Below are positions 8,792-39,015 of a stretch of DNA of 64,000 nucleotides, one piece after another (the stretch's first letter is position 1; each line of letters begins with the position of its first letter). The stretch covers positions 2,529-66,528 of the forward strand of contig CALWKA010000001.1 of the NCBI GenBank assembly GCA_944381155.1, given 5' to 3'. This stretch comes from an uncultured Clostridia bacterium. Lineage in GTDB: Bacteria; Bacillota; Clostridia; Christensenellales; UBA1242. A program made the position numbers and the translations under genes. The notes under the pieces were generated by a model. It was given only the letters and a program-made list of their open reading frames with translations, was not told the DNA's origin and did no database searches.

Positions 8792-8800
8792 GGAAAATAT

Positions 8801-10977: not shown

Positions 10978-11080
10978 TGTTGTTTCTTTAGTTTGCTTTT
11001 TAACAGATCATAAATGATTTATTTTCAATCACAAAACGAAAATCTGTTTTAACAAATATTGTAGAAATTGATTTTAGCAC

Positions 11081-11109: not shown

Positions 11110-11213
11110 CAATGCGTTAAAAATTTCAACAATATTTTAACACACTAATTTTGATGTCGATGTCTGGTTAGTGTCCTTACCTGAAAAGGTCAATAGTCCA
11201 TAAGGAGGTTAAG

Positions 11214-11495: not shown

Positions 11496-11512
11496 TTAAT
11501 TTAGGAGATGTT

Positions 11513-11926: not shown

Positions 11927-11944
11927 TAATTAAAGGAGAAATTT

Positions 11945-12705: not shown

Positions 12706-12714
12706 TGATATAAT
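12706..12714 (+). promoter_or_regulatory. Extended -10 (TGATATAAT) placed 6 nt before the prfB ATG; predicts a leaderless transcript
   Basis: TATAAT at 12709-12714 and ATG at 12721, with no SD. Confidence 0.5.
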
Positions 12715-12720
12715 ATAATT

Positions 12721-13833: not shown

Positions 13834-13921
13834 AAAACTGTTAATATTTTTCAACAATTAAAAACTCAAAACTTTTAATAAAAAAATTCATAGATAATGA
13901 ACTGAATATAATTTTAAAGAC

Positions 13922-13950
13922 TTGAATTTTATTTGACTTTGATATATAAT
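13922..13950 (+). promoter_or_regulatory. Promoter TTGAAT-17-TATAAT immediately upstream of tsaD
   Basis: TTGAAT at 13922-13927 and TATAAT at 13945-13950. The in-frame GTG at 13957 lies 6 nt downstream. Confidence 0.5.
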
Positions 13951-13956
13951 AGGTGT

Positions 13957-14967
13957 GTGAAAAAAGATTTCAAAATATTGGCAATAGAAACAAGTTGTGA
14001 CGAAACAAGTGCTTCAATCGTAGTAAACGGAAGGACTTGTCTTTCCAATATAGTGTCTAGTCAAATTGATATTCACACTAGATTTGGTGGGGTTGTACCC
14101 GAAGTCGCTAGCAGGAATCACATCACCGCAATTGATAATGTGGTCAAACTTGCTCTTAAAAAAGCAAATTTTACTTTCCGCGATATTGACGCAATCGCCG
14201 TAACTTATGGTGCGGGCTTGGTTGGCTCGCTCTTGGTGGGTGTAAGTTATGCAAAGGCGGTCAGTTATGCACTAAACATTCCGCTCATTGCTGTGAATCA
14301 CATATATGGTCACATCGCTGGAAATTATCTGTCTTTTCCCGATCTAGTGCCACCATTTATCTGCTTGGTGGTCAGCGGTGGGCATACCGCTATCATTGAA
14401 GTAAAAGATTTTAATCATCATAAAATCATCGGCTCTACGCTAGACGATGCGGTAGGTGAAAGTTTTGACAAAGTTGCGCGCGTGCTAGGCTTAGGTTATC
14501 CGGGCGGGCCAAAGGTTGACGCACTTGCCAAAAAAGGCAAAAACATAATTCAATTTGCAAAGCCTAATGACAATCTTGGATATAATTTTAGTTTTAGTGG
14601 CAAAAAAACTGCTGTTATAAATTATGTCCATAAATTAGAGCAGGCAGAAAAACCAATTCCGAAAGAAGATATTTGTTTAAGTTTTGAGCGTTGGGTGGTG
14701 GACGAACTTTGCCAAAAGTCGATCGACGCGTGCAAAAGTTTAGGTTATGACAAAATTGTAGTTGCGGGCGGAGTGAGCGCAAACTCTGCATTGAGAGAGT
14801 CGTTATATTCGGAGTGCGAACAAAACAAAATAAAATGTTTCTTCCCGGACTTTCAATTTTGCACAGACAACGCAGCGATGATAGGAAGCGCAGCCTATTA
14901 TGCCTATCTTGACGGTGTGGGGATAGCAGATGTGTCACTATCTCCAAATCCTAGTTTAAGCCTTTAA
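13957..14967 (+). CDS. tsaD: tRNA N6-adenosine threonylcarbamoyltransferase TsaD
   Basis: ILAIETSCDETS at the N-terminus and the metal site VNHIYGH. The start is uncertain. The track uses TTG 13933, which sits inside the predicted promoter, so GTG 13957 is preferred. Confidence 0.85.
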   Translation: MKKDFKILAIETSCDETSASIVVNGRTCLSNIVSSQIDIHTRFGGVVPEVASRNHITAIDNVVKLALKKANFTFRDIDAIAVTYGAGLVGSLLVGVSYAKAVSYALNIPLIAVNHIYGHIAGNYLSFPDLVPPFICLVVSGGHTAIIEVKDFNHHKIIGSTLDDAVGESFDKVARVLGLGYPGGPKVDALAKKGKNIIQFAKPNDNLGYNFSFSGKKTAVINYVHKLEQAEKPIPKEDICLSFERWVVDELCQKSIDACKSLGYDKIVVAGGVSANSALRESLYSECEQNKIKCFFPDFQFCTDNAAMIGSAAYYAYLDGVGIADVSLSPNPSLSL

Positions 14968-15525
14968 ATCGTTAAAAATTATTTTAATTTAGAATGAAAA
15001 CAAATATTGTAAATTATCAAACATTGATATAAATATATTCTTAAAATTTACTCACCAAAAATTGCACTAATTGAATGTAATAAATTTTAAAATATATTTT
15101 GAAATTGCACTCAAATTAATTTACCTTTCAAAATCAGTAAAAATGAATGTGTATGCATTTGCTAGTCGCATCTATCCTATACTTTCAATAATAATCATAC
15201 TTTCAACAACAATTTTACTAATATTATTTTATATTTGATTCAATAAAGTTTACATTCTATTTATAATATCTTATAATATTATCGTTATCTCATTTTATTT
15301 ATATTTTATATGTTTAGACGATTTTAGATAAAGATTATCGCTAGGGGTATTGTGACAATCAAACAAAATTCGGTATAATTTTACATTCAATTATGCTTAT
15401 CCATAGTAATATTTGAATTAAAATTTCTTTGTTGTTTTATGGATTGTATATTATATTGTGGTGTCAAAAAACTAATTCCACAATAATCATAACATTTACA
15501 AAAATAAAACAACAATTCAAGTTAT

Positions 15526-15600
15526 GCTCTCGTGGTGTAATGGATAGCACAATGGTCTTCGGAACCATTAGTTCGGGTTCGAATCCTGACGGGAGCGCCA
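15526..15600 (+). tRNA. tRNA-Arg (anticodon TCG)
   Basis: Acceptor GCTCTCG/CGGGAGC, anticodon stem ATGGT/ACCAT with loop CTTCGGA, T-arm GGTTCGAATCC, encoded CCA. Confidence 0.85.
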
Positions 15601-15603
15601 TAA
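15557..15603 (+). repeat. 47-bp direct repeat, copy 1 (tRNA-Arg from the anticodon loop through CCA plus 3 nt)
   Basis: CTTCGGAACCATTAGTTCGGGTTCGAATCCTGACGGGAGCGCCATAA is identical at 16434-16480. Confidence 0.95.
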
Positions 15604-15726
15604 AACCCTTTATTTTAGGGATATCTAGCAAATTTAGGTTTCGCTGTTTACATTACAAGAACTGATAGATTTGAAACAGAGTCAAAGATCACTTGAGTTA
15701 TTTAAAAAATCGAAGGATATAATATT

Positions 15727-16191
15727 ATGAATATAGTTTATTGCCATCATGCATAAAGAATTTTTACAGGAAGTCAAAAAGATGATATAACTGATCTAGG
15801 GAGAAAAGATGCCGAACTTGTTGGACAATTTATAAAACATATACCTAATGTAAAAGCGATTTATATATCTCATTATTTTAGATGTATAGAAACAGCAAGA
15901 ATAATAAACAAATCTCTTAATGTACCCATTATTGAAGAAGATAGGTTTAATGAATTTGTTAGTAAAGAAAACAAAGAAACATGGATTGATTTGCAAAAGA
16001 GAGTTATTGCAGGTATTAAAGATATCGTTAATAAATATAATGATGAAGATAGTATTATTTGTGTGACATCTGGTGTTAATATCGCGGGTTTTCTTGATTG
16101 GAATTTAGGACTAGAACCAAGTGAAAATATGCCATTTTTAGGAATTATTTCGTGTTCACCGGTAATATTTAAATACAATAAAAAATCATAA
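15727..16191 (+). pseudogene. Histidine phosphatase (phosphoglycerate mutase family) with an in-frame TAA at 15754-15756
   Basis: MNIVYCHHA*RIFTGSQKDDITDLGRKDAELVGQF... continues in the same frame into track ORF 15991-16191. The usual RHG catalytic motif is degraded to HHA. Confidence 0.6.
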
Positions 16192-16433
16192 GTTTATTAA
16201 ATTTAAAAGTACAATTTTTTTAGTAATTTATAAATTTTTGCAATAAAAATGCAAGATCTTTGCAAAAGGGGTGTTTTGTGTTGTATTTTTTCGTGTTTGT
16301 ATTGTATAATATTGTTTGATAAGATGAAGTGGCTAAAATGCTGATAAATAAAGGGGTTAAGGAATTTTTAATATGATATTTTATGGTAAAATATGATACA
16401 AAAAGTCGAACTCGCAACAATTGTAGGTTGCCC

Positions 16434-16480
16434 CTTCGGAACCATTAGTTCGGGTTCGAATCCTGACGGGAGCGCCATAA
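16434..16480 (+). repeat. 47-bp direct repeat, copy 2 (orphan tRNA-Arg 3' half)
   Basis: Identical to 15557-15603. It lacks the acceptor 5' strand and the D-arm. Confidence 0.95.
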
Positions 16481-16527
16481 TGTACATAATTATTTTATAA
16501 TATTGTTTAGTAATTTTTTTTAAGCAG

Positions 16528-16556
16528 TTGAAATTTTTTGATTCTTGCGCTAATAT
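16528..16556 (+). promoter_or_regulatory. Promoter TTGAAA-17-TAATAT placed 6 nt before the mnmE ATG; predicts a leaderless transcript
   Basis: TTGAAA at 16528-16533, TAATAT at 16551-16556 and ATG at 16563, with no SD. Confidence 0.55.
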
Positions 16557-16562
16557 ATAGTT

Positions 16563-17876
16563 ATGGATAAAACTATTGTTGCATTAGCCACCCCCGCAGG
16601 AAATAGCGGAGTTGCGGTCATTCGTGTGAGTGGTGAAAACTCAAAAAAATGTTTGCAAAAACTTATTCGCGAAGATTTAGATTTTGAACCACGAAAAATG
16701 TATCTAAAAAAAATCTATTTTTCTGGACTAGAAGATGTTTGTCTAGTCGTGTTCTTTCCATCCCCTCATAGTTACACGGGGGAAGATGTCATTGAAGTCC
16801 AATCGCACGGCGGATATTTTATTGCAAAGAAAATCATTGACGAACTCTTATCTCTCGGTTGTTTTCCTGCATCTGCTGGTGAATTTAGCAAACGCGCCTT
16901 CATAAACGGCAAACTTTCGCTCGACCAAGCAGAAGGAATTATGGATTTAATCAATGCAGAAAGTGATATGCAAGCAAAAAATGGCAGTTTTCTTATGCAG
17001 GGTGAACTGAAAAAAATCATTGAAGAATACCAAAATAGACTGACAGAAATTTTGGCAGAAATCGAAGCAAAACTCGACTATCCCGAATATGAATATACCG
17101 AAAATGAAACGACTGATATTTTGAAAAAATTAAAAGAAATTGACACAAATTTATCTATGCTAATTGTAGATAGCAAAACGGGAATCAAAATAAAAAATGG
17201 CGTGCGTGTGGCGCTGATTGGCGCACCAAATGTTGGGAAATCAAGTCTTCTGAATGCGCTTACGAAAACTAACAAAGCTATAGTCACATCAATCGCCGGC
17301 ACGACGCGTGATGTAATAGAGGGTGAATATGAATTTAGCGGAATCATATTTAGACTATTCGACACAGCGGGAATACACGAAAGTCAGGACGAAGTTGAAA
17401 AAATTGGAATAGAACGCGCAAAACAAATTTTAAACGAAGCAGATATTGTGTTGAAAATTTCGGATGACTCAAATATTTGTAATATTTCCACCGAGCAACC
17501 ATACATCAATGTTATCAACAAATCTGACATAATTGACGAAAAGAAAATTAAAGATCAATTTGCATCAGACTATATTTTGGTCAGTGCAAAAAACAATGAA
17601 AATATAGACGCACTCAAGCAATTGATATTTGACAAAACAATTTTAAAAAAAATTGATTCAAACAAATTGTATTTGACGAACGCGCGACACATTTCGGCAG
17701 TCAAACAGGCAAAGACTTATATTAATAATGCTATATCTCAATTCAATAATACAAGTATGGATATAATATCTAGCGAGATAAAATCGGCTTGGCTAAGTTT
17801 AGGTGAAGTTACTGGCGACACAAACAATGAAACAATAATTGATAAAATCTTTTCAAAATTTTGCTTGGGAAAATAA
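16563..17876 (+). CDS. mnmE: tRNA modification GTPase MnmE
   Basis: G domain motifs GAPNVGKSSLLN and DTAGI. C-terminal CLGK motif. Confidence 0.95.
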   Translation: MDKTIVALATPAGNSGVAVIRVSGENSKKCLQKLIREDLDFEPRKMYLKKIYFSGLEDVCLVVFFPSPHSYTGEDVIEVQSHGGYFIAKKIIDELLSLGCFPASAGEFSKRAFINGKLSLDQAEGIMDLINAESDMQAKNGSFLMQGELKKIIEEYQNRLTEILAEIEAKLDYPEYEYTENETTDILKKLKEIDTNLSMLIVDSKTGIKIKNGVRVALIGAPNVGKSSLLNALTKTNKAIVTSIAGTTRDVIEGEYEFSGIIFRLFDTAGIHESQDEVEKIGIERAKQILNEADIVLKISDDSNICNISTEQPYINVINKSDIIDEKKIKDQFASDYILVSAKNNENIDALKQLIFDKTILKKIDSNKLYLTNARHISAVKQAKTYINNAISQFNNTSMDIISSEIKSAWLSLGEVTGDTNNETIIDKIFSKFCLGK

Positions 17877-17957
17877 ATTATTTATTCTAAAAAATTAATT
17901 AAAATAATCATATAATCAATATTGAAAATATAAAAATATATGATATAATAGGGCGAT

Positions 17958-19820
17958 ATGGAATTTGTAGATGAATATGACGCAATAGTGATAGGTAGTG
18001 GACACGCAGGAAGTGAAGCGTGTCTTGCTTTGGCTAGGCTAAACAAAAAGACATTGCTCACCACTCTCAATTTGGATAGCATCGCTTTTCTTGCCTGCAA
18101 TCCAAGCATTGGCGGAACAGCTAAAGGGCAATTGGCTGGCGAGGTGGATGCACTAGGCGGAGAGATGGGAGTCAATGCGGACAAATCTATGCTTCAACTT
18201 CGCATTCTCAATTCGGGTAAAGGTCCAGCGGTTCAATCTTTGCGCGCACAGGTGGATAAAGTGACATACCACAACGAAATGAAACATACCATTGAAAGAC
18301 AGAAAAATTTGGATGTACTTCAATGCGAAGTTGCTGAAATTTTGGTTGAAAATAGCAAAGTGGTAGGAATTAGGACAAGTATGAACGAATATTTTTCGTG
18401 CAAAGCAGTTGTTGTTTGCACGGGGGTATATCTCAATAGTAAAATAATAATTGGCGACTTTACAAAATTCACTGGTCCAAACGGATACGAACCCAGCACA
18501 ATGCTCACAAAATCTTTAATAGATTTAGGCATAGAGATTCGGCGTTTCAAAACAGGAACCCCTGCCCGTGTAGACGCAAAATCAATAGATTATTCAAAAT
18601 TTGAAATTCAGCCAGGTGACGATTTAAACATTTCATTTTCTCCTATTAGCAAAAAGGTGAAAAACAAAAAAGTTTGTTATCTAGGCTACACTTCACCTGC
18701 TATGCACGATTGTATTCGTGAGAATATATTGCACGCTCCACTATATTCGGGCAAAATCAATGGAATTGGTCCGAGATATTGTCCTAGCATTGAAGATAAA
18801 ATTATGCGTTTTTCAGATAAAGAGCGTCATCAACTTTTTTTAGAGCCAGAGAGTGAAAATTCGGATGAAGTGTATGTTCAAGGGATATCTAGCAGTATGC
18901 CTACCGATGTTCAGCGAAAGATGTATTCGTTGATTCCTGGATTTGAAAATGTAAAAATTATGCGTTTTGCTTATGCCATTGAATACGATTGTATAAATGC
19001 CACCGAACTAAAAAATAATCTAGAATCAAAGAAAATTTCAGGGTTGTTTTTTTCAGGTCAAGTCAACGGCACGAGTGGATATGAAGAAGCGGCTGCTCAA
19101 GGTATTATGGCGGGCATCAACGCACAGCGTTATATAGACAATCTTTCTCCTTTCGTACTCGGTAGAGATCAAGCATATATAGGAGTTTTGATAGACGATC
19201 TCGTCACAAAAGATATTATAGAACCATACCGAATGATGACTAGTAGAGCGGAATATCGTTTGATTTTGCGTCAGGACAATTGTGACATTCGCCTAACCGA
19301 GATAGGTAGAAAAATCGGGCTAGTCGATGACAAAAGATACCGAATTTTAAAGAAAAAATTAAAGCAAATCGCGCAAGTAAATCAATCTTTAAATGTTTCG
19401 TATGGTCCAAAAAAATTAGAACAATTATTTGTTGAAAAAAATGAAAGTTTACCAAAATCTGGACTTACATTGAGAGAGTGTGTCAAACGAAATAACATAA
19501 CCATATTTGACATTGCAACTCATTTCAAAATGTTTTCGGATATACCAAAAAATGTATTAGAGTATGTAAACACTGAAATTAAGTATGAAGGATATATCAA
19601 AAAAGAATTAGAGTATATCGAGAAAAATAGACATATTGAAAACTTGAGTTTGCCAGACATAGACTATTCAAAAATAAACGGACTACGAATAGAAGCGCGT
19701 CAAAAACTGAACAAGTTCAAGCCCTCCACACTTGGACAAGCAAAACGAATAGATGGAGTGAGCCCTAGCGATATCAATGTTCTTCTCGTCTATTTAAAAT
19801 TAAAAGGAATTATCAAATAA
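17958..19820 (+). CDS. mnmG: tRNA uridine 5-carboxymethylaminomethyl modification enzyme MnmG
   Basis: 620 aa with the N-terminal FAD motif VIGSGHAGSEA. GidA family. Confidence 0.95.
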   Translation: MEFVDEYDAIVIGSGHAGSEACLALARLNKKTLLTTLNLDSIAFLACNPSIGGTAKGQLAGEVDALGGEMGVNADKSMLQLRILNSGKGPAVQSLRAQVDKVTYHNEMKHTIERQKNLDVLQCEVAEILVENSKVVGIRTSMNEYFSCKAVVVCTGVYLNSKIIIGDFTKFTGPNGYEPSTMLTKSLIDLGIEIRRFKTGTPARVDAKSIDYSKFEIQPGDDLNISFSPISKKVKNKKVCYLGYTSPAMHDCIRENILHAPLYSGKINGIGPRYCPSIEDKIMRFSDKERHQLFLEPESENSDEVYVQGISSSMPTDVQRKMYSLIPGFENVKIMRFAYAIEYDCINATELKNNLESKKISGLFFSGQVNGTSGYEEAAAQGIMAGINAQRYIDNLSPFVLGRDQAYIGVLIDDLVTKDIIEPYRMMTSRAEYRLILRQDNCDIRLTEIGRKIGLVDDKRYRILKKKLKQIAQVNQSLNVSYGPKKLEQLFVEKNESLPKSGLTLRECVKRNNITIFDIATHFKMFSDIPKNVLEYVNTEIKYEGYIKKELEYIEKNRHIENLSLPDIDYSKINGLRIEARQKLNKFKPSTLGQAKRIDGVSPSDINVLLVYLKLKGIIK

Positions 19821-19841
19821 AAATTTAGGAGAAATTTATAA

Positions 19842-20966
19842 ATGATAAAAATTAATGGAATCAATTTAGATGAAAAAACAGCTAATTTATATGTGAAAAA
19901 TCTAGACAAAAATTGTGCAATTGTAGATGCCCATGGTTTTAATTCTTTTATTAATCATAAGATTGATGGAAAATCAATTATGGATAATTTAAAAATAATT
20001 CAAAGTCTATTAGAAATTGAAAAATTAAAAAATATAAAATTTGACAAATCTTATTCTGAACAAATCAATATAGTTAAAGAATTTTATAAAACTTATTTTC
20101 CTTCTATTTCAGAAACCATAGATTCTATTATCGACAATAAAAATCCTGATTATAATGTAGTCCTTCAATTGGGTAAATCAGTTCATAGTTCTGTGGGACA
20201 TTCAGGTTTTGCTACTAAATTAAATTTTGTAGTAGGTTTAGATGGTTCACTAGAAGGTATGATTACTCTTGTTCATGAATTATCTCATGCTATCAGCGCA
20301 CATCATACTGAAACAATAGCTCAAACAAAAGCAATTAATTCAAAAGATTTAAGTAATCAAGAAAAAAATGAATTAATAGCCAAATTTAATGAGTTTTGCA
20401 AACATAAATCTGACTTTGATATTGATTGTATAGGAGAAATTGAAAGTCATATTGTTGAAAATTTATTTGTACAATATTTGTTAGATAAAAAAATCATCTC
20501 ACAAGAAAACTATGACACATATTTTTTAAGCAGAAAAATTTCTCTTAATAATAATTTAAATTTAATTTTTGAAGAAAATGAAATTATATCTAATTTACCT
20601 TGTCCTATAACTTATGAAAGTGTTTTAAAATTTATTCAAAATAAACATAACGAACATTCATCTAATTTTAAAAATATTATAAATAGACTGAAAATTATGT
20701 CAGAAAGAGATGAAAAAAGTGGAAAGCACAGTAAATATATGTATAGATACGTAGTAGGAGAAATTGTATCATCAGTTTGGTTCGACAAATATTTGACAAA
20801 TCCTAAAAATAAAAAAGAAATGCTTGATAAATTTATTTCTTATTTATCAAATACTGACAAATTAAATATTAACTCAGCTTCTGAGTTTTTAATAAATGAA
20901 GATTTTATGAATTGTATTAATGATTACATAAATTTAAACGAACATAATAATGAAATTTCAATTTAA
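19842..20966 (+). CDS. Hypothetical protein with an HExxH motif (putative zinc metallopeptidase-like)
   Basis: 374 aa containing LVHELSHAISAHH. AGGAG RBS. Visibly lower GC than the flanking mnmG and rsmG. Confidence 0.4.
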   Translation: MIKINGINLDEKTANLYVKNLDKNCAIVDAHGFNSFINHKIDGKSIMDNLKIIQSLLEIEKLKNIKFDKSYSEQINIVKEFYKTYFPSISETIDSIIDNKNPDYNVVLQLGKSVHSSVGHSGFATKLNFVVGLDGSLEGMITLVHELSHAISAHHTETIAQTKAINSKDLSNQEKNELIAKFNEFCKHKSDFDIDCIGEIESHIVENLFVQYLLDKKIISQENYDTYFLSRKISLNNNLNLIFEENEIISNLPCPITYESVLKFIQNKHNEHSSNFKNIINRLKIMSERDEKSGKHSKYMYRYVVGEIVSSVWFDKYLTNPKNKKEMLDKFISYLSNTDKLNINSASEFLINEDFMNCINDYINLNEHNNEISI

Positions 20967-21028
20967 TATATAAAAAAATAAAAATTAATATTAAAAATTA
21001 ATAAAAATTATTGAAAAAAATAAAATTT

Positions 21029-21709
21029 ATGAAAAAAATTGAAAAATATTATAATTTAATTAATGAACATCTAAGTGAATTTGAAAAATATTATAATTCA
21101 CTAATTTCTTTCAACGAAAAAGTCAATTTGACTGCAATTACGGACAAAGAAGATGTTTTTATTAAACATTTTCTTGATAGTATTTTGTCTATTGATGAAA
21201 TAAAAGAAAATTCTAATGTCATTGATATCGGTGCAGGTGCAGGATTTCCTAGCCTACCAATTAAAATTGTTCGTCCTGATATAAAGCTAACAATGTTAGA
21301 TTCACTGAATAAGCGTATCAATTTTTTAAATCAAATTTGTAGTGAACTAAACATTACATCAACAAATATTCACGCACGAGCGGAAGATTATGTGAAAGTT
21401 TATAGAGAAACATACGATGTCGCGCTTGCTCGCGCGGTCGCTAGATTAAATAGTTTGCTTGAATATCTGTTACCTTATGTTAAAATCGGCGGAATAGTGT
21501 TGGCATATAAAGGTTCAAATTATCTAGAAGAATTAGACGAAGCAAAAAATGCGATTAACACTTTGGGCGGAAGATATGTAAAGACGATCAAATTCAATCT
21601 TCCAGAAAATAAAGGTGAGCGAAATATAATTGTAATTGAAAAAATTAGATCCACACCAAAATCTTTTCCGCGTGCAAAAAATTTAGCAAAATTAAATCCT
21701 ATTAAATAA
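21029..21709 (+). CDS. rsmG: 16S rRNA (guanine527-N7)-methyltransferase RsmG
   Basis: SAM-binding motif DIGAGAGFPSLPIKI. The start is uncertain: TTG 21011 in the track or ATG 21029. Confidence 0.9.
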   Translation: MKKIEKYYNLINEHLSEFEKYYNSLISFNEKVNLTAITDKEDVFIKHFLDSILSIDEIKENSNVIDIGAGAGFPSLPIKIVRPDIKLTMLDSLNKRINFLNQICSELNITSTNIHARAEDYVKVYRETYDVALARAVARLNSLLEYLLPYVKIGGIVLAYKGSNYLEELDEAKNAINTLGGRYVKTIKFNLPENKGERNIIVIEKIRSTPKSFPRAKNLAKLNPIK

Positions 21710-21979
21710 AAATATTTATTTTATTCGATTTTTAACTAAAAAATAACAATTTTTTATTATTTTATAGTATTTTTTATAATTTTTTAAATTTTTAATTTTT
21801 ATAAGATTGAAATTTTTATAATTTTTTTGTTATTAATTATTAAAAAATTACTATTCTATTATATTTAGTATTTTATTATTTATATATATTTATCTAATTA
21901 AATATTTAATTTTATTATTGATTTTTATTATATTTAATATTGAAAAAATGCCGAACGAAAATGTTCAGCATTTTTTATA

Positions 21980-22822
21980 TTACAAATCTGTTGGATCAAC
22001 TGAAATTTCTGGATTGTTTTTGATTTCTTCTAGTATGGCTTTACAATCTTTGTTTTGTTGTTCCTTTCGTGCGATTGAAACTCTCCATTCGGCAATTGCT
22101 AGATTGTTTTTTTCAATCATGGCTTCCAATAAGTTTCCGTTTCTTAATCTAACAATTACCATACCATCTGCTATAGCTTTCCAAAACTCATCTCTAATTC
22201 CAGGGAATATATCTTCCAAACGCTGTGCAGGTTTGGTCACGAACATATCAGGTGAGATCAACACTTCTTCATTTGATAGATCTTGTAATCTTTTCGTAGA
22301 TCTTTTCACCAATTTCTTTATTTCGGCATAATCGTATCCGATTTCTTTTAGATCAAATATAAATTCTTTGCTAGTTCCGTCCCTTTTGTTATTAACAAGA
22401 ATAGTCAAATATTTTCTGTTTGATACTGCGTTTGTGATTAGATTTTTGTCTGTATTTTTTTCTGCTTGAATACTAACTGATAAATTTGGGTCAATATTTT
22501 TTAGATAACTATTCAAATATTTTTCTAGCCTATCAAGATTTATCCAAAACAATCGTTGCCAATTTTCAATATTTTGATCCAAATATTCAACCATTTTAGC
22601 AATTTCATTTTCTCTCTTTTTAATTTCTTCATTTGCACTTTCAGAAAAATATGTTGCTTCCAAATCTTCAGCCTTATGAATATTATTTAGTGTCTGACTG
22701 ATATTAAAATACATTTTTTCTCTGGTAGTCAATCTCTCATATTCTGATTTTCTGATGTTTTCAATTTCAATTTTGAGATCTATCAAAATGTTTATAAGTT
22801 TTTTAAAGTCTTTAAATTCCAT
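21980..22822 (-). CDS. Hypothetical protein (coiled-coil N-terminal half); no family recognised
   Basis: 280 aa ORF with GGAG-like sequence upstream. A hairpin at about 21945-21975 lies downstream. Nearly pure A/T spacers flank it. Confidence 0.5.
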   Translation of the reverse strand: MEFKDFKKLINILIDLKIEIENIRKSEYERLTTREKMYFNISQTLNNIHKAEDLEATYFSESANEEIKKRENEIAKMVEYLDQNIENWQRLFWINLDRLEKYLNSYLKNIDPNLSVSIQAEKNTDKNLITNAVSNRKYLTILVNNKRDGTSKEFIFDLKEIGYDYAEIKKLVKRSTKRLQDLSNEEVLISPDMFVTKPAQRLEDIFPGIRDEFWKAIADGMVIVRLRNGNLLEAMIEKNNLAIAEWRVSIARKEQQNKDCKAILEEIKNNPEISVDPTDL

Positions 22823-23454
22823 ATTTGCTCCTAATGATGACTGAATTTTATCACACGATTGTCAGTTTGTCAATATGCTTTTTATGATAAGTTTAAAAAA
22901 TACAATTTATAAAAATAAAAAAATTGTCATAAATTTATAAAAAATATAAAATAAATGATCAATAATTCATAATTTTTAATATTTTTTTAATAATTAATAA
23001 ATTTTTATTTTAGTTATATAAAATATAAAACTATCAATCACTTATAAAGCCAATCAAAAAAATTTGTTTTACTTCTAAAAATTATTTTATTTTATAAATT
23101 TGTTTTCTATAAAATACTAGTCAATATATTATATCTAATATATATAATACTTATATATCTTTATCCTTATATATTAATATAATATTATATAAATCTATAT
23201 ATTATATATATTATAATTATATTGTATACTATTATCTTTTAACTTACATATATTTATCATTATGGACATTAAAAATTTTATTATATATATTCATAATTAT
23301 TAAGTTTGAATAATATTGAAAATAAAATTCTATAAATTATATTAAGACAATTAAAAAAAATTCTTTACTATGTAAAATAATTCTAGATTATTAATAAAAA
23401 AATAAAATTTATATTTTTTTATATGTAAAACGCTAACATTTGGTTAATTTTACA

Positions 23455-23483
23455 TTGACTTTAAAAATTTTTAATATTATAAT
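23455..23483 (+). promoter_or_regulatory. Promoter TTGACT-17-TATAAT placed 7 nt before the recF ATG; predicts a leaderless transcript
   Basis: TTGACT at 23455-23460, TATAAT at 23478-23483 and ATG at 23491, with no SD. Confidence 0.55.
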
Positions 23484-23490
23484 TGAAAAA

Positions 23491-24567
23491 ATGAAAATAA
23501 ATTCAATCAAACTTAATAATTATAGAAACTATAAAAATTCAACTATTGATTTCACTGATGGCGTAAATTTTATTGTAGGGAAAAATGCACAGGGCAAAAC
23601 TAATCTACTAGAGAGTATATATTTATCAAGTGTTGGGAAAAGTCCAAAGAATTGTAGGGAAAAGCAAATCATTATGTTCAATGAAAGTCAAGCCAGAATT
23701 GAATTAGATTTTTCCACACTTGCAGGCAAAAAAAATATAAAGATATATTTAGATAAGGCAAACAAAAAATCTATCAAGGTGAACAATCTCAATATTTTGA
23801 AATTGACTGAATTTGTTGGTATACTATCTATCGTATATTTTAGTCCAGACGAATTGAAGTTGATCAAAGAAGTTCCAGAAGATAGAAGAAATTTTTTAGA
23901 TATATCAATTTCTCAATTTGATAGGACATATTTATACAATCTTCTCAAGTATAACAAAATTTTGAAACAACGAAATTCAATATTAAAGAGCGACAATAGC
24001 GATCAAACGAAGATAGACGAATTGAAGTTGTTTACACCGCAGTTGATTGAATGTGCGGAAAAAATTATTGAAAAAAGGTTAAATTTTATTGAAAAGTTGA
24101 AAAAATACGCAATAAATCTGCATAAATTCATAACAGACAGCGAAATTTTGGATATTTCATATAGCTACGCAAAAGATGACAAGTTGACAATCAAAGAACA
24201 ATTATCTCAAGAATTTGAAAAAATAACGACTAAAGAAATTGAATTGGGTTATACCTGTATTGGTCCGCATCGCGATGACATCATTTTCAAAATCAATGAT
24301 AAAGATTGCAAATATTTTTCTTCACAAGGTCAACAGCGTACCGTGGCGTTGGTCGTGAAACTTTCGCTAATGGAAGTAATAAAACAAGAGATTGGTGAAT
24401 ATCCCATCTTATTGTTAGATGATGTGTTGAGCGAACTTGATCAAACTAGGCAGGACAAATTGATTGAATTGGTTAGCAAATATCAAACGCTAATTAGTTG
24501 TACAAAAATTCCAAACACAAATATAAAATACAACACAATAAAAATTGAAAACGGAACAAAAATTTAA
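23491..24567 (+). CDS. recF: DNA replication and repair protein RecF
   Basis: Walker A GKNAQGKTNLLE, signature SQGQQRT and Walker B LLLDDV. The preferred start is MKINSIKLNNYRNY; the track starts at TTG 23440. Confidence 0.9.
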   Translation: MKINSIKLNNYRNYKNSTIDFTDGVNFIVGKNAQGKTNLLESIYLSSVGKSPKNCREKQIIMFNESQARIELDFSTLAGKKNIKIYLDKANKKSIKVNNLNILKLTEFVGILSIVYFSPDELKLIKEVPEDRRNFLDISISQFDRTYLYNLLKYNKILKQRNSILKSDNSDQTKIDELKLFTPQLIECAEKIIEKRLNFIEKLKKYAINLHKFITDSEILDISYSYAKDDKLTIKEQLSQEFEKITTKEIELGYTCIGPHRDDIIFKINDKDCKYFSSQGQQRTVALVVKLSLMEVIKQEIGEYPILLLDDVLSELDQTRQDKLIELVSKYQTLISCTKIPNTNIKYNTIKIENGTKI

Positions 24568-24795: not shown

Positions 24796-24826
24796 AAAAA
24801 ATTCACTGATTTTACAGTGAATTTTA
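24796..24826 (-). terminator. Terminator downstream of dnaA (bidirectional hairpin)
   Basis: ATTCACTG-ATTTTA-CAGTGAAT, flanked by A-runs and T-runs on both sides. Confidence 0.7.
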
Positions 24827-24840: not shown

Positions 24841-26196
24841 TTAATATTTTAAAAGTTGAGATTTTATATCGTTTACTAGCGTTCTAATATGTGGATTGAT
24901 TTTCACTTGATTGCTGATTTTATCTCGCGCGTGCATTATGGTGGTATGATCCCTTCCGCCGAATATTGCACCGATCGCAGTGAGCGGGATGCTCAACATA
25001 TCGTTTATCAAATAGATACACAACTGTCTAGGTTCTACAATCTCTTTATTTTTTTTCTTTCCTATCAAATCTTCTTTTGACACTTTGAAGAAGTCACATA
25101 CTGTATTTAATATTTTTTCAGCATCTAGATTGGTCTTTTCTGTCTCTCCATAATCTTTAAGTGCTTCGTGCGCATCTTCCATACTCGCGTGCGACTTTCC
25201 TAACAAACTTGAATAAAATACAACTTTTGACAAAATTCCTTCCATCTCTCGAATGTTTGTACCTGTTTTTTGCGCTATGAAGTCAACCACATCTTCGTCT
25301 ACTAAATAACCTTCTTGACTACATTTCTTTTTGATAATTGCCACCTTAGTTTCATAATCTGGCTCTTGAATGTCTTGAATGAGTCCACTGCTGAATCTAC
25401 TGCGCAATCTCTCTTCTAGCGAACTCATTTCTTTTGGTGAACGATCGGACGCTATGATAATTTGTTTATTGTTTTGATACAGATCATTGAATGTATGGAA
25501 GAATTCTTCCTGAATTCCCATTTTATTGCTAATAAATTGAATATCATCAATCATCAGCACATCTACGCTACGATACTTATCTCTAAAATCGAGATTTGAT
25601 TTGTCCTTTCCACTACGAATTGAATCTACATAATCATTTGTAAACTTTTCACAAGTGACATATAATACATTCAAATCTGGCCTATGTTTGTTCAAATAAT
25701 TTCCTACAGCGTGGAGTAGGTGAGTTTTTCCTAATCCAACTCCACCGTATATGAACAGCGGATTAAACTTTTCACTAGGATGCTCGGCTACACTTTGCAT
25801 TGCTGCGCACACCACTTGATTTGATTTTCCTACCACAAAATTTTCAAATGTATACTTTTGATTGAATTTAGACTTGAAGTTGGACGAATCTTTTTCACTC
25901 ATCATTCGCTCTAACTCCTCATCCTGCTTGCGAATTGATTCTTCATACTCTTGAATGTCGGTTATTCGAACGAATGTATACGGCGTGAACTCTTGTCTAA
26001 CACATTTTGTGATTTTTTCATAAATCGCGGGCTGATTGACTTGATTTTTCGCCGTGACACTAGGTGCTTTTATAATTAATTCATCATTTGCGTATTGAAT
26101 TGGGGTTAAAGTATTGATCCATAAGTCGAATGTGACCGCCGTGACCTCGTTTTCCAACTTATTCAACACTTTTTTCCATTGATCAAGTAAAAACAT
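24841..26196 (-). CDS. dnaA: Chromosomal replication initiator protein DnaA
   Basis: 451 aa with AAA+ Walker A GGVGLGKTHLL and the domain IV motif GGRDHTTIMHA. AGGAG RBS upstream. Confidence 0.95.
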   Translation of the reverse strand: MFLLDQWKKVLNKLENEVTAVTFDLWINTLTPIQYANDELIIKAPSVTAKNQVNQPAIYEKITKCVRQEFTPYTFVRITDIQEYEESIRKQDEELERMMSEKDSSNFKSKFNQKYTFENFVVGKSNQVVCAAMQSVAEHPSEKFNPLFIYGGVGLGKTHLLHAVGNYLNKHRPDLNVLYVTCEKFTNDYVDSIRSGKDKSNLDFRDKYRSVDVLMIDDIQFISNKMGIQEEFFHTFNDLYQNNKQIIIASDRSPKEMSSLEERLRSRFSSGLIQDIQEPDYETKVAIIKKKCSQEGYLVDEDVVDFIAQKTGTNIREMEGILSKVVFYSSLLGKSHASMEDAHEALKDYGETEKTNLDAEKILNTVCDFFKVSKEDLIGKKKNKEIVEPRQLCIYLINDMLSIPLTAIGAIFGGRDHTTIMHARDKISNQVKINPHIRTLVNDIKSQLLKY

Positions 26197-26447
26197 ATTT
26201 CACTCCTACGATATTTATATTATATAATAAAATTAAGATTAAGTCAATTGGCAAAATGAAAATATATGTCTAAATAATTTTCTTTCGCAATAATTGGCAT
26301 TCGTCGTTTTGTTTTTTTGCTGGATAAAAAAATTTTGATAGGGTAAAATTTTTAAGTTTAGCGAATAAACATACGGCTTTAAATAAAAATACGAAGAATT
26401 CTAATAATTTTTTTTCTTATCTCATCAATTACTAAAAAATTTTTAAG

Positions 26448-26593
26448 TTTTCCACTGACAAAATATAGTTATCCACCTGGATTTGCACACAGTTAAGCAC
26501 AATCATTGTGGATAAAAATAGTGTGGAATTTGTCGAAATTTGGCACAAACACCACTAAATATTGAATAATTTCAAGTTGTCCACTTTTCCACA
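26448..26593. promoter_or_regulatory. DnaA-box cluster 1 (dnaA-dnaN divergent intergenic region)
   Basis: One perfect box, TGTGGATAA (26507-26515). One-mismatch boxes TTATCCACC (26469-26477) and TTTTCCACA (26585-26593). Two-mismatch boxes at 26448-26456 and 26577-26585. Confidence 0.75.
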
Positions 26594-26750
26594 TTCACTA
26601 ATAAAAAAATCACTATCAAAAAACAAAAAAAATTAATAAAAAAACTACACGCGTGCACACGCATATAATGCGCCTGAAATACTATTTTATAGTATTTTTC
26701 TTTGATTTAATTAACGAAAAAAATTTTTCGACAAAAGTGTAAAAATTTAT

Positions 26751-26779
26751 TTGACATATTGCGGATCGTTTGCTAATAT
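26751..26779 (+). promoter_or_regulatory. dnaN promoter (TTGACA-17-TAATAT, with a TG extension)
   Basis: TTGACA at 26751-26756 and TGCTAATAT at 26771-26779. The leader is about 130 nt. Confidence 0.6.
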
Positions 26780-26909
26780 AGTGCTGTATCATTAAGGCAA
26801 AAAGGTCAAATTGCTTTGATGATTTGTCAAAAAATCTATATTTTGGGCAAGATAAGATTTTTTGAATTAAACGCGTTTTAAGGGGAGTATAGGAGGAAAA
26901 AGAGTAGAT

Positions 26910-28007
26910 ATGAAATTCAGATGTGACGGATTGGAGTTAAGCGAGGCAATTAGTACAGTATCAAAAGCTATCAGCTCAAAGACCACTTCTCAAATTCTTG
27001 AAGGAATTAAGATGGTGTGCGAGGATGACCTACTTGTTCTTACTGCAACTGACCTTGAAATGAGTGTTGAAAAAAAAATTCGAGCAGAAGTGGATTCACG
27101 CGGAGAGACGGTTGTGCCGGGTAGACTCTTCGGCGAATACATAAAAAAACTTACAAATGAACAGATTGAATGCGAATTGAATGAGAAAAATCAGTTGAAA
27201 ATTTCGTATACAGACAGCGAAGGATGCCTTCAATGTATGGATATTAGTGAATTTCCTGCAATTAAGGAAGTGAACAAGGATAATTTCTTTGAAATTACGA
27301 AAGAAAATTTCAAGTCTTTGATAAACAATGTGTTCTATGCGGTGGCGCAGGACGATAGTAGACCTATTTTGAAGGGTATTTTGATGGAAACCAATCAAAA
27401 TAATATTCGTGCTGTGGCTGTGGACGGATGTAGGCTCAGTATTTCAAACAAAAGTTTGGTTATGTCCACTAATGATTTCAAAATAATTGTGCCAGGCAGG
27501 AATTTGAACGAGATTGTAAAGATGATGAATGGGGAAGACAATGTCAAAGTTTATATCCATTCAAACAATATTATGGTGGATCTTGGGGATACGATTGTGA
27601 TCAATCGCTTGATTGATGGTCAATTTATTAATTATCGCCAGATTGTGCCAAAAGATTTTTCTACAATCGTCACAATAAATAAAGAGCAGTTGGAAGACGC
27701 CATTGATAGAGCGAGTGTGCTTTCGCGTATTGATAAAAATAATTTGGTTAAATTCGACATCAAAGAAAAGAATTTGATGCTTACTTCAAATAGCGAATTG
27801 GGCAACACGCGTGAAAATATTACGGTGGGAGTGAAGGGCAACGATCTCAATATTTCGTTCAATTCAAAATATTTTAGTGATTGTTTGCGTGTGATTGACA
27901 ATCCGTATGTGAAGATGAATTTTAATAGTCAGATTCAACCGTGCGTCATCACTCCGTCCGAAGGAGACGATTTCTTGTTCTTAATTTTGCCTGTAAAAGC
28001 AAGATAA
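26910..28007 (+). CDS. dnaN: DNA polymerase III beta sliding clamp
   Basis: 365 aa starting MKFRCDGLELSEAISTVSKAISSKTT. GGAGG RBS upstream. Confidence 0.95.
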   Translation: MKFRCDGLELSEAISTVSKAISSKTTSQILEGIKMVCEDDLLVLTATDLEMSVEKKIRAEVDSRGETVVPGRLFGEYIKKLTNEQIECELNEKNQLKISYTDSEGCLQCMDISEFPAIKEVNKDNFFEITKENFKSLINNVFYAVAQDDSRPILKGILMETNQNNIRAVAVDGCRLSISNKSLVMSTNDFKIIVPGRNLNEIVKMMNGEDNVKVYIHSNNIMVDLGDTIVINRLIDGQFINYRQIVPKDFSTIVTINKEQLEDAIDRASVLSRIDKNNLVKFDIKEKNLMLTSNSELGNTRENITVGVKGNDLNISFNSKYFSDCLRVIDNPYVKMNFNSQIQPCVITPSEGDDFLFLILPVKAR

Positions 28008-28103
28008 GATAGCGGTTTATCAAATCGTTTATATTTATATAAAATAATACATACTAATATTTTAGTAATAATTTAGAAAAAAATTGTACGAAAAATCTAC
28101 GAT

Positions 28104-28194
28104 TTATCCACAATCAAGTTTTTCGAACATATGTTTAATTTATATTATATATAAATTAAAAGTTATCCACATTTTAATTTTTCATTGTGGATAA
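28104..28194. promoter_or_regulatory. DnaA-box cluster 2 (downstream of dnaN), followed by an A/T-only stretch
   Basis: Three perfect boxes: TTATCCACA (28104-28112), TTATCCACA (28163-28171) and TGTGGATAA (28186-28194). A T-rich tract at 28195-28262 follows. Confidence 0.8.
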
Positions 28195-28438
28195 CTTTTT
28201 TTTTGTTTTTTTATTGATTATTTTTTTCAATTAGATTATAATATCATTGTCCGCTTATATTAATTCAATTTTTCTTTGTTTCAAATCGACTCTATTATAC
28301 TTTTGTATAACATTCTAATGAACTTGTTTTCTAATAAAAATTTTATTTCTTTTGTTACCTTTCAATTTTATTAAGAAATTAATTAAACTTAAACTATCAA
28401 AACAAAAATTAATATAAGGACATATATTATGAGATTAT

Positions 28439-28526
28439 GAAGAGTTGTCAGAGTGGTCGAATGTGTCGCTCTCGAAAAGCGATGAGGTGAAAGCCTCCGG
28501 CGGTTCGAATCCGCCACTCTTCGCCA
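28439..28526 (+). tRNA. tRNA-Ser (anticodon CGA)
   Basis: Acceptor GAAGAGT/ACTCTTC, anticodon loop CTCGAAA, long variable arm, T-arm GGTTCGAATCC, encoded CCA. Confidence 0.9.
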
Positions 28527-38877: not shown

Positions 38878-39015
38878 ATGAAACAGACTTATCAACCAAA
38901 GAAAAGACAACGCAATAAAGTTCACGGTTTCAGAGCGAGAATGAAGACTTTGTCGGGCAGAAAGGTTCTTAAAAGGCGTAGAAACAAAGGGAAAAAGAAT
39001 TTGACTAACAATTAA
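38878..39015 (+). CDS. rpmH: 50S ribosomal protein L34
   Basis: Below the ORF-track length cutoff. Manual translation gives [52 protein letters not shown] upstream. It precedes rnpA. Confidence 0.95.

What the first reader, a model, noticed from the sequence alone, without database searches (positions are those of the whole stretch)
24841..28262. Atypical origin architecture: dnaA is inverted and divergent from dnaN, with DnaA-box clusters flanking dnaN
In most Firmicutes, dnaA and dnaN are co-directional and the bipartite oriC flanks dnaA. Here dnaA is on the minus strand and converges with recF, while dnaN is on the plus strand. One DnaA-box cluster lies in the divergent dnaA-dnaN spacer: a perfect TGTGGATAA at 26507 plus four boxes with 1-2 mismatches. 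A second cluster of three perfect boxes (28104, 28163, 28186) lies downstream of dnaN, directly followed by a tract of about 65 nt of almost pure T/A (28195-28262). That tract could serve as the unwinding element. gyrB and gyrA are absent from the usual downstream position.
Basis: partly seen in the sequence, partly recalled or inferred. Interest (0 to 1): 0.6.

Follow-up and report, generated by a model that had tools for sequence, protein, structure and literature searches.

The report
Flipped dnaA gene at replication origin
This is the real chromosome replication origin of a tiny-genome chicken-gut bacterium (Candidatus Onthoplasma), in which the initiator gene dnaA has been turned around as a self-contained unit next to an unchanged origin core. 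It is a rearranged variant of a well-known system, not a new kind of origin.

Summary
dnaA (24841-26196, minus) diverges from dnaN (26910-28007, plus) and converges on recF. Four of the window's six perfect DnaA boxes lie at 26507 and 28104-28194. gyrB is on other contigs.

The layout is not an assembly artefact. At least 14 independent genomes of the genus share it, and contigs from other samples span both junctions.

The origin is here. Raw GC skew has its minimum near 6 kb, but that follows gene strand. At four-fold degenerate sites, corrected for gene strand, the skew switches sign between 19.5 and 27 kb.

What flipped is only the dnaA transcription unit: promoter, coding sequence and terminator. 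Outgroups, basal species and three crown species have recF>dnaA>dnaN>, and trees require at least two flips.

A conserved core (tandem boxes 26578-26593 plus an A-rich tract) keeps its orientation towards dnaN in both forms. It is the best candidate for the unwinding site.

The cluster after dnaN is the family's old rpmH-promoter box palindrome. The "T/A tract" is a promoter-like TTGATT-17-TATAAT and is not unusually unstable.

About 25-30 kb of housekeeping genes left of dnaA are read head-on to replication.

Verdict: a new variant of the Firmicute split origin, of moderate interest.

The parts
23491..24567 (+). recF. The likely true start is the ATG at 23491; the ORF lister starts at the TTG at 23440.
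   Evidence: TIGR00611 at 353 bits, with the alignment starting at residue 18-20 of the long ORF. Promoter-like TTGACT-17-TATAAT at 23455-23483.
24798..24825 (-). Two-way terminator hairpin. It forms the 3' end of the dnaA cassette and is the left limit of the inverted segment.
   Evidence: Terminator scan, 11-pair stem plus T run on both strands. Inverted homology to co-directional relatives starts at 24841.
24841..26196 (-). dnaA coding sequence, 451 aa.
   Evidence: TIGR00362 at 498.9 bits over the full length. It is the only full-length DnaA in the assembly.
26219..26247 (-). dnaA promoter, TTGACT-17-TATAAT. This is the right limit of the inverted segment.
   Evidence: 11 of 12 consensus match. 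Inverted homology to type-B genomes ends at 26248. The same promoter sequence sits upstream of dnaA in type-B relatives.
26447..26515 (.). Distal DnaA boxes of the dnaA-dnaN spacer: 26447 TTTTCCACT, 26469 TTATCCACC, 26507 TGTGGATAA (perfect).
26578..26593 (+). Tandem DnaA boxes TTGTCCACT and TTTTCCACA. These are the proximal boxes of the conserved origin core.
   Evidence: Present in the same orientation relative to dnaN in at least 20 loci of both dnaA orientations.
26597..26645 (+). Conserved A-rich tract TAATAAAAAAATCACTATCAAAAAACAAAAAAAATT... This is the best candidate for the DnaA-trio/unwinding region.
   Evidence: Near-invariant AATCACTATCAAAAA across the genus, directly after the tandem boxes and a short, often G+C-rich spacer. 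It lies inside the skew switch interval. Function is inferred.
26646..26669 (.). G+C-rich patch bounding the A-rich tract. It scores as terminator-like on the minus strand.
   Evidence: A G+C-rich patch is present at this place in all relatives, but its sequence is not conserved.
26751..26779 (+). dnaN promoter, TTGACA-17-TAATAT with TG.
   Evidence: Conserved in relatives.
26910..28007 (+). dnaN coding sequence, 365 aa.
   Evidence: TIGR00663 at 290 bits. Four-fold GC skew is +0.31, as for right-arm co-directional genes.
28104..28194 (.). Second DnaA-box cluster: a perfect box at 28104, and the palindromic pair TTATCCACA-N14-TGTGGATAA at 28163-28194.
   Evidence: The palindromic pair is conserved after dnaN or before tRNA-Ser or rpmH in relatives.
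28214..28242 (+).
   Evidence: It is homologous to the rpmH promoter module of basal relative L044 and to the dnaA-upstream module of type-B L043.
28439..28526 (+). tRNA-Ser(CGA), the first gene downstream of the box-plus-promoter module.
   Evidence: ARAGORN. tRNA-Ser lies downstream of dnaN in L032, L033, L038 and L098.
38878..39015 (+). rpmH, followed by rnpA, yidC and jag up to 41570. It lies 10.9 kb downstream of dnaN on the same strand. A degenerate copy of the box-plus-promoter module sits at about 38781-38845.
   Evidence: In relatives rpmH follows dnaN closely.
980..24567 (+). Block of mostly plus-strand housekeeping genes pointing towards the origin: parA, parB, glnS/gltX-type tRNA synthetase, lepB, ssb, rpsR, prfB-type release factor, tsaD, mnmE, mnmG, rsmG, recF.
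   Evidence: Gene calls. Their coding-strand four-fold GC skew (median -0.07) matches head-on genes, against +0.31 for plus genes right of dnaN.

Best explanation
The window holds the chromosomal replication origin of a reduced-genome Clostridia bacterium (Candidatus Onthoplasma, order Christensenellales, family UBA1242).

The origin is a rearranged Firmicute-type split origin:
- A conserved core lies in the spacer upstream of dnaN. It has distal DnaA boxes at 26447-26515, tandem proximal boxes at 26578-26593, an A-rich tract at 26597-26645 and a G+C patch. I infer that DnaA opens the duplex here, and forks leave in both directions.
- A second DnaA-box cluster lies downstream of dnaN (28104-28194). 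It is the lineage's old rpmH-promoter box palindrome, the counterpart of the classical rpmH-side 'oriC1'. It most likely acts as a DnaA operator on the adjacent promoter (28214-28242). It may also act as the accessory half of the origin, looping out dnaN instead of dnaA.

In the crown clade of the genus, the dnaA transcription unit alone was inverted. This unit comprises promoter 26247-26219, the coding sequence, and terminator 24798-24825. As a result dnaA now diverges from dnaN across the origin core and runs with the leftward fork. The flip happened at least twice in the genus, once forwards and once back or in parallel. It occurred by rare illegitimate recombination in A/T-rich flanks, not by a dedicated switch.

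Earlier translocations left about 25-30 kb of housekeeping genes to the left of dnaA oriented head-on to replication.

Shown: gene identities and orientation, box enrichment, conservation, polymorphism of orientation, and the skew switch.

Inferred: the exact unwinding site, the operator role of the second cluster, and the mechanism of inversion.
For: 1. Identity and layout.

2. Box enrichment: 6 perfect boxes against 0.72 expected, 4 of them around dnaN. Genome-wide the only multi-box clusters are in the first 31 kb of this contig.

3. Fork-direction switch:
- A logistic model of G versus C at four-fold sites, with gene strand as covariate, prefers a switch over no switch by 2dLL = 45. The support interval is 19.5-27.5 kb.
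- With a 17-kb left extension from an identical strain, the interval is 19.5-27.0 kb. A switch at -2 kb is worse by 29 log-likelihood units, and one at 28.5 kb is worse by 3.9.
- At gene level, plus genes have a median of -0.07 on the left (n=17) and +0.31 on the right (n=16), p = 1.3e-5. Minus genes have +0.36 on the left (n=10) and -0.07 on the right (n=5), p = 0.008.
- The same left/right shift is significant in 3 of 6 divergent-type relatives.

4. Not an artefact: the same layout occurs in many independent MAGs. Logan contigs of runs X4 and X5 span both junctions. No long inverted repeats exist that could mislead an assembler.

5. The cassette flip:
- Inverted homology to co-directional relatives runs exactly from 24841 to 26248, while 26508-26792 stays collinear.
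- Promoter and terminator bound that segment.
- The DnaA tree and an independent RecF+DnaN tree both place three co-directional genomes inside the divergent crown clade. An AU test rejects a single origin of the divergent state, p = 1.3e-4.

6. The core is conserved in at least 20 loci of both types, in one orientation relative to dnaN.

7. The second cluster is the rpmH/tRNA-Ser promoter module.
Against: - Raw cumulative GC skew has its minimum at about 6.2 kb, not at dnaA.
- Gene orientation alone would also put the origin left of parA.
- The densest DnaA-box array of the genome lies 2.2 kb left of the window. It travels with a DHH-family gene wherever that gene lies, so it is gene-linked.
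- A/T skew at four-fold sites shows no clear switch.
- The skew shift is weak in some relatives (L033, L034, L035, L043).
- DnaA-trios next to the tandem boxes are weak: 2 consecutive NAN triplets in the window, 3 in L043.
- The A-rich tract is not thermodynamically exceptional.
No replicon-wide skew or marker-frequency test was done.
Confidence: 0.7

Rival explanations
1. The origin is bipartite around dnaN, and the duplex opens in the T/A tract at 28195-28262, downstream of the three perfect boxes.
For: - Three perfect boxes lie within 91 bp, directly followed by a nearly pure A/T stretch.
- The box pair is conserved across the genus.
Against: - The tract reads as a promoter, TTGATT-17-TATAAT. 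In relatives the same module drives rpmH or tRNA-Ser.
- Its stability ranks only in the top 10-15% of the window.
- dnaN has right-arm skew (+0.31). Placing the switch at 28.5 kb costs 3.9 log-likelihood units.
- No tandem-box plus conserved A-rich core lies here, unlike at 26.6 kb.
Confidence: 0.12
2. The working origin is the dense DnaA-box array about 2.2 kb left of the window (contig positions 321-396), where gene orientation switches. On this view the boxes around dnaA and dnaN only regulate those genes.
For: - This is the densest array in the genome: 4 perfect and 2-3 near-perfect boxes in about 140 bp.
- Genes to its right are mostly plus and those further left mostly minus.
- The raw skew minimum is nearby, at 6.2 kb.
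Against: - The strand-corrected four-fold skew does not change across it. A switch at -2 kb is worse by 29 log-likelihood units.
- Plus genes between it and dnaA carry head-on skew.
- The array sits at a fixed distance upstream of a DHH-family gene in 23 of 27 genomes of the genus. That gene lies 11-58 kb from dnaA, in either orientation, and once on the other side. So the array belongs to the gene, not to a fixed origin.
Confidence: 0.08
3. Replication starts in the extremely TA-rich spacer at 22.8-23.4 kb upstream of recF, the least stable DNA in the window. DnaA would be delivered from the box clusters 3-5 kb away.
For: - 23168-23227 is the least stable 40-60-bp stretch of all 64 kb.
- It lies inside the skew support interval.
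Against: - No DnaA-box cluster lies within 3 kb.
- I did not examine it for conservation in relatives.
Confidence: 0.05
4. The dnaA segment is an actively invertible (phase-variable) switch, flipped by a site-specific recombinase.
For: - Both orientations occur within one genus, with at least two events.
- The flipped unit is precisely one promoter-to-terminator cassette.
Against: - There are no flanking inverted repeats beyond low-complexity A/T runs. The best is 31 nt at 81%.
- No recombinase was found among the neighbouring genes.
- Orientation is fixed within subclades.
- No strand-changing joints appear in contigs of four runs, although contigs drop rare variants.
Confidence: 0.04

Closest known systems
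Bacillus subtilis / Clostridioides difficile bipartite oriC (oriC1 between rpmH and dnaA; oriC2 between dnaA and dnaN, with the unwinding element in oriC2; PMC7561715, PMC6669920)
   Same: - DnaA with TTATCCACA-type boxes.
- Two box clusters about 1.6 kb apart separated by one gene.
- Proximal tandem boxes followed by an A/T-rich tract just upstream of the dnaN promoter.
- One cluster is tied to the rpmH promoter.
   Different: - The gene between the clusters is dnaN, not dnaA.
- rpmH lies downstream of dnaN on the same strand. In this genome it is 10.9 kb away.
- dnaA lies outside the pair of clusters and is inverted.
- recF is upstream, and gyrB and gyrA are elsewhere.
- DnaA-trios are weak.
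Basal unwinding system (BUS): DnaA box(es), spacer of at most 16 bp, and at least 3 DnaA-trios (PMC8287927)
   Same: - Tandem boxes with at most 2 mismatches.
- A short spacer that is often G+C-rich.
- An A/T-rich conserved stretch follows, with fixed orientation relative to the boxes across the genus.
   Different: - Only 2 consecutive NAN triplets lie on the expected strand in the window, and 3 in relative L043.
- The strand and polarity rule was taken from memory of E. coli R1 and from the C. difficile description, so the test is inconclusive.
DnaA-box clusters outside oriC and DnaA-controlled promoters of B. subtilis (PMC2533591)
   Same: - A box palindrome lies directly upstream of a promoter.
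- The same box-plus-T-rich-plus-'-35' design is seen before dnaA (type B), dnaN, rpmH, tRNA-Ser and the DHH gene in this genus.
   Different: No binding or expression data exist, and the cluster after dnaN may also serve the origin.
Escherichia coli oriC, separated from dnaA by rearrangement (as noted in PMC8287927)
   Same: It shows that dnaA and the origin core can be uncoupled by rearrangement without loss of function.
   Different: Here dnaA stays adjacent. Only its orientation and the surrounding gene order changed.

Membership tests
Firmicute bipartite oriC (B. subtilis / C. difficile type) | Two DnaA-box clusters in separate intergenic regions near dnaA/dnaN | tested here: met
   Clusters at 26447-26593 and 28104-28194. 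Enrichment is 6 perfect boxes against 0.72 expected.
Firmicute bipartite oriC (B. subtilis / C. difficile type) | The clusters flank dnaA within the context rnpA-rpmH-dnaA-dnaN | tested here: not met
   The clusters flank dnaN. dnaA is outside them and inverted. rpmH is at 38878 on the dnaN strand.
Firmicute bipartite oriC (B. subtilis / C. difficile type) | The fork-direction (skew) switch coincides with the locus | tested here: met
   The strand-corrected four-fold GC skew switches at 19.5-27 kb. The raw skew minimum is at 6.2 kb.
Firmicute bipartite oriC (B. subtilis / C. difficile type) | DnaA-dependent unwinding in the spacer upstream of dnaN, needing both clusters | not testable with these tools
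   Needs purified DnaA and a P1-nuclease or permanganate assay.
Basal unwinding system (BUS) | A DnaA box with at most 2 mismatches, with a second tandem box of at most 4 mismatches | tested here: met
   TTGTCCACT (2 mismatches) and TTTTCCACA (1 mismatch) at 26578-26593. Conserved in at least 20 loci.
Basal unwinding system (BUS) | At least 3 consecutive DnaA-trios (NAN, consensus 3'-GAT-5') within 16 bp of the box, on the correct strand | tested here: inconclusive
   By eye there are 2 consecutive triplets in the window (GAT TAT on the bottom strand) and 3 in L043. The strand rule was taken partly from memory.
DnaA-regulated promoter / DnaA-box cluster outside the unwinding site | Boxes directly upstream of or overlapping a promoter, kept together with the downstream gene in relatives | tested here: met
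   Palindromic pair at 28163-28194 plus TTGATT-17-TATAAT. The same module lies before rpmH in L044 and before tRNA-Ser in L098 and L043.
DnaA-regulated promoter / DnaA-box cluster outside the unwinding site | DnaA binding and an effect on transcription | not testable with these tools
   The organism is uncultured, and no RNA or ChIP data were examined.
Site-specific invertible DNA switch | Inverted repeats at the two ends of the invertible segment | tested here: not met
   Only low-complexity A/T matches; the best is 31 nt at 81%.
Site-specific invertible DNA switch | A recombinase gene nearby, and both orientations within one population | tested here: not met
   No recombinase domain in neighbouring ORFs. 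No strand-changing joints in contigs of 4 runs. That is a weak test, because contigs drop minor variants.

The most novel reading that the evidence does not exclude
In this family the two halves of the classical split origin have been re-partnered, so that they loop out dnaN instead of dnaA. That leaves the dnaA transcription unit outside the origin loop and free to flip. The repeated flips in Onthoplasma would then be a natural experiment: dnaA orientation is unconstrained once it is outside the loop. The divergent form would be favoured because it removes the head-on conflict of dnaA with the leftward fork, and because the dnaA and dnaN promoters then transcribe away from the unwinding site, adding negative supercoiling there. 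This would hold together with a long-tolerated head-on block of about 25-30 kb of essential genes beside the origin.
Probability: 0.25. Interest if true: 0.55.

Novelty: new variant of a known kind. Interest (0 to 1): 0.4.

Why it matters
Origin predictors and textbook pictures assume rnpA-rpmH-dnaA-dnaN, with the origin flanking dnaA and a raw GC-skew minimum at the origin. This lineage breaks all three assumptions:
- rpmH and its box cluster lie downstream of dnaN.
- dnaA is a cassette that has flipped at least twice within one genus beside an unchanged core.
- The raw skew minimum is about 20 kb away from the strand-corrected switch, because a block of housekeeping genes is read head-on.

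This gives a natural test of which features of a Firmicute origin are constrained (the box-plus-A-rich core upstream of dnaN) and which are not (dnaA orientation and flanking gene order). It also warns that automated origin calls in reduced-genome gut Clostridia can be misplaced. It does not reveal a new initiation mechanism.

Tried and rejected
I replaced it with four-fold-site analysis of the window plus a 17-kb extension reached through the look-up of encoding contigs.
- Marker frequency could not be done. All runs that hold the sequence are kept only as Logan contigs, so no read-depth gradient and no minor-orientation test were possible.
- Inverted repeats as drivers of the flip: none found beyond A/T runs.
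- Nearest-neighbour stability as a pointer to the unwinding element: uninformative in a 30% G+C genome. Neither candidate tract stands out.
- A/T skew at four-fold sites gave no usable switch.
- The array left of the window was considered as the true origin. I rejected it on skew and because it moves with the DHH gene.
- Paper searches found no description of this layout or of Onthoplasma origins.
- The text of the BUS papers does not state the strand rule explicitly, so the trio test stayed inconclusive.


Full report
**What is there**

The window is positions 2529-66528 of a 195-kb contig in a 1.015-Mb, 18-contig, 92%-complete assembly. Related records are named Candidatus Onthoplasma or uncultured Clostridia from chicken and other animal guts. 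A paper places the genus in Christensenellales, family UBA1242, among gut bacteria with reduced genomes (PMC12306168).

Gene order on the plus strand:
- parA, parB, tRNA-Arg, metK (minus strand)
- a Glu/Gln-tRNA synthetase, lepB, an alkylation-repair protein, a D-Ala-D-Ala carboxypeptidase
- ssb, rpsR, a release factor, tsaD, tRNA-Arg
- mnmE, mnmG, an unknown gene, rsmG, an unknown gene on the minus strand
- recF, then dnaA on the minus strand (24841-26196), dnaN (26910-28007), tRNA-Ser
- about 10 kb of mixed genes, then rpmH (38878), rnpA, yidC, jag

gyrB-type genes lie on other contigs.

**DnaA boxes**

Perfect TTATCCACA occurs six times in the window against 0.72 expected, and no shuffle reached six. 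Four of the six are at 26507, 28104, 28163 and 28186. The spacer also holds 26447 TTTTCCACT, 26469 TTATCCACC, 26578 TTGTCCACT and 26585 TTTTCCACA.

Genome-wide there are 42 perfect boxes against 11 for the reversed control. The only multi-box clusters lie in the first 31 kb of this contig.

**Is it an assembly artefact?**

No, for three reasons:
- The layout recF> <dnaA dnaN> recurs in at least 14 species-level genomes of the genus, from different studies.
- Logan contigs from two other studies cover 24218-26209 (run X5) and 25136-26714 plus 26685-27896 (run X4). Together they span both junctions.
- No long inverted repeats flank dnaA that could mislead an assembler.

**Where do the forks diverge?**

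Raw GC skew is positive on both sides of dnaA. Its cumulative minimum, in the window plus a left extension, is at about 6.2 kb.

Raw skew here follows the coding strand, however. At four-fold degenerate sites I found the following:
- Plus-strand genes left of dnaA have G-C skew of -0.06. Plus-strand genes right of dnaN have +0.28.
- A logistic model with gene strand as covariate prefers a direction switch by 2dLL = 45. The support interval is 19.5-27.5 kb.
- I extended the sequence 17 kb to the left using a contig from an identical strain (0 mismatches over 3496 bp). There, window-minus genes have coding-strand skew +0.34 and window-plus genes -0.11.
- On the composite sequence the interval is 19.5-27.0 kb. 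A switch at -2 kb is worse by 29 log-likelihood units, and one at 28.5 kb by 3.9.
- With genes as the units, co-directional genes sit near +0.3 and head-on genes near -0.07 on both arms. For plus genes p = 1.3e-5, and for minus genes p = 0.008.
- Three of six relatives with the same layout show the same shift at p < 0.01. The others have few sites.

The polarity (minus on the left, plus on the right) is that of an origin. The consequence is that about 25-30 kb of mostly plus-strand housekeeping genes, from parA to recF, are transcribed towards the origin, and have been for long enough for the skew to equilibrate. Further left, genes turn to the minus strand.

**What exactly is inverted?**

Against co-directional relatives (L028/L043 and L031), homology runs in reverse orientation from 24841 to 26248. 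From 26508 onwards it is collinear.

That segment is bounded by a two-way terminator (24798-24825) and by the best promoter match in the region, TTGACT-17-TATAAT at 26247-26219 on the minus strand. So the flipped unit is the dnaA transcription unit alone.

In co-directional genomes a perfect DnaA box abuts the -35 of this promoter. In the window and in L098 it does not.

**How often did it flip?**

Outgroup genera and the basal lineages L045, L044 and L029 have dnaA> dnaN>. A crown clade with 100/100 support is mostly divergent but contains three co-directional genomes.

The DnaA tree needs four changes. An independent RecF+DnaN tree puts the three co-directional genomes together with divergent L098 in a 98/94 clade inside the crown. 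An AU test rejects a single clade of divergent genomes, p = 1.3e-4. So at least two inversion events occurred.

I found no recombinase and no real inverted repeats. I therefore read these as rare fixed inversions, not a switch. Other species show further shuffling, for example <dnaA recF>, or rsmG between recF and dnaA. The origin neighbourhood is a rearrangement hot spot in this genus.

**The origin core**

At least 20 loci of both dnaA orientations carry, 206-585 nt upstream of the dnaN start and always in the same orientation relative to dnaN, the following elements in order:
- AAGTT(G/A)TCCAC(A/T)NTTCCACA
- a 5-7-nt spacer, often G+C-rich
- TAATAAAAAAATCACTATCAAAAAA and more A-rich sequence
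- a G+C-rich patch

In the window this is 26578-26669. The layout matches the known arrangement of proximal tandem boxes, spacer, trios and A/T-rich region upstream of dnaN in B. subtilis and C. difficile (PMC8287927, PMC7561715).

The trio criterion of at least 3 NAN triplets is met only in some relatives; the window has two. The core lies inside the skew interval. I take it as the most likely unwinding site, but this is an inference.

In the divergent form, the dnaA and dnaN promoters (26247 and 26751) transcribe away from this core. By the twin-domain model that would add negative supercoiling there. This is speculation.

**The cluster after dnaN**

The pair TTATCCACA-N14-TGTGGATAA (28163-28194) recurs after dnaN in many relatives. 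It is followed by TTGATT-17-TATAAT at 28214-28242.

In basal L044 the same module, box pair plus CTTTTTTGTTTTGTTATTGACA-17-TATAAT, directly drives rpmH (Pfam L34, 7e-20). In L098 and L043 a copy sits about 66 bp before tRNA-Ser.

Across the family the order is dnaA> dnaN> rpmH> rnpA> yidC> jag> mnmE> mnmG> rsmG>. So this cluster is the counterpart of the classical rpmH-side cluster, now on the far side of dnaN.

In the window about 10.6 kb separates the module from rpmH, and rpmH keeps a degenerate copy of the module. The cluster could still serve as the accessory half of a split origin that loops out dnaN. That cannot be tested here.

**The array outside the window**

The densest array of the genome is at contig positions 321-396, with 4 perfect boxes in 76 bp and further near-perfect boxes beside them. 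It lies 2.2 kb left of the window, just upstream of a DHH/DHHA1 gene.

The skew does not change across it. In 23 of 27 genomes of the genus the array sits at a fixed distance upstream of that gene. The gene itself lies 11-58 kb from dnaA, in either orientation, and once on the other side. It is a gene-linked DnaA-box cassette, not the origin.

**Comparison and verdict**

This works like a Firmicute split origin but fails two of that family's context features: the clusters do not flank dnaA, and the rnpA-rpmH-dnaA-dnaN order is absent. Earlier notes of this scan report divergent dnaA/dnaN in other lineages, and I found no paper describing this layout.

I class it as a new variant of a known kind. 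Its interest is moderate: a clean natural polymorphism of dnaA orientation beside a fixed core, a long head-on block next to an origin, and a caution for skew-based origin calling.

Noticed in passing
outside the window: contig positions 321-396 (2.2 kb left of window start); L112:6810-6955: The densest DnaA-box array of the genome lies about 90-160 nt upstream of a DHH/DHHA1 phosphoesterase gene. It has 4 perfect and 2-3 near-perfect boxes, mostly head-to-tail at 11-12 bp, plus one inverted box. The array keeps this position in 23 of 27 Onthoplasma genomes wherever the gene lies. It looks like a DnaA-controlled gene or a DnaA titration site.
   Followed up: yes
window 980-24567 and L115: About 25-30 kb of essential housekeeping genes (parAB, ssb-rpsR, release factor, tsaD, mnmEG, rsmG, recF) point towards the origin and carry equilibrated head-on four-fold skew. 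This is unusual for a PolC-type Firmicute, where co-orientation is normally strong.
   Followed up: partly
window 28262-38877: About 10.6 kb, holding tRNA-Ser, tRNA-Leu, orphan genes and a radical-SAM/ATP-grasp pair, separates the dnaN-side box-plus-promoter module from rpmH. In relative L098 rpmH follows dnaN within 0.5 kb. rpmH keeps a degenerate copy of the module at about 38781-38845. The stretch looks like inserted, variable DNA.
   Followed up: partly
window 23168-23227: This is the least stable DNA of the whole window: irregular TATA runs in the 620-bp spacer between an orphan minus-strand gene and recF. It lies inside the skew switch interval but has no DnaA boxes.
   Followed up: no
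window 26644-26669: A G+C-rich palindrome followed by a T run on the minus strand scores as an intrinsic terminator pointing towards dnaA. A G+C-rich patch is kept at this position in all relatives, but not as a conserved hairpin.
   Followed up: no
loci L062, L065, L050 (other genera of the family): In these relatives, co-directional genes on both sides of dnaA have strongly negative coding-strand GC skew at four-fold sites (-0.4 to -0.9). That is the opposite sign to Onthoplasma, so the mutational or codon bias differs between neighbouring genera.
   Followed up: no
loci L040, L041, L023, L077, L079: Further origin-region rearrangements occur in relatives: rsmG between dnaA and recF, dnaA diverging from recF without dnaN nearby, and dnaN convergent with dnaA.
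   Followed up: no
window 26247, 26751, 28214, 38815; L043:9922; L112:6883: A recurrent promoter design is seen before dnaA (co-directional genomes), dnaN (some species), rpmH/tRNA-Ser and the DHH gene. It consists of the DnaA box TGTGGATAA, then CTTTT(T)GTTT, then a -35 element. This hints at a small DnaA regulon.
   Followed up: partly
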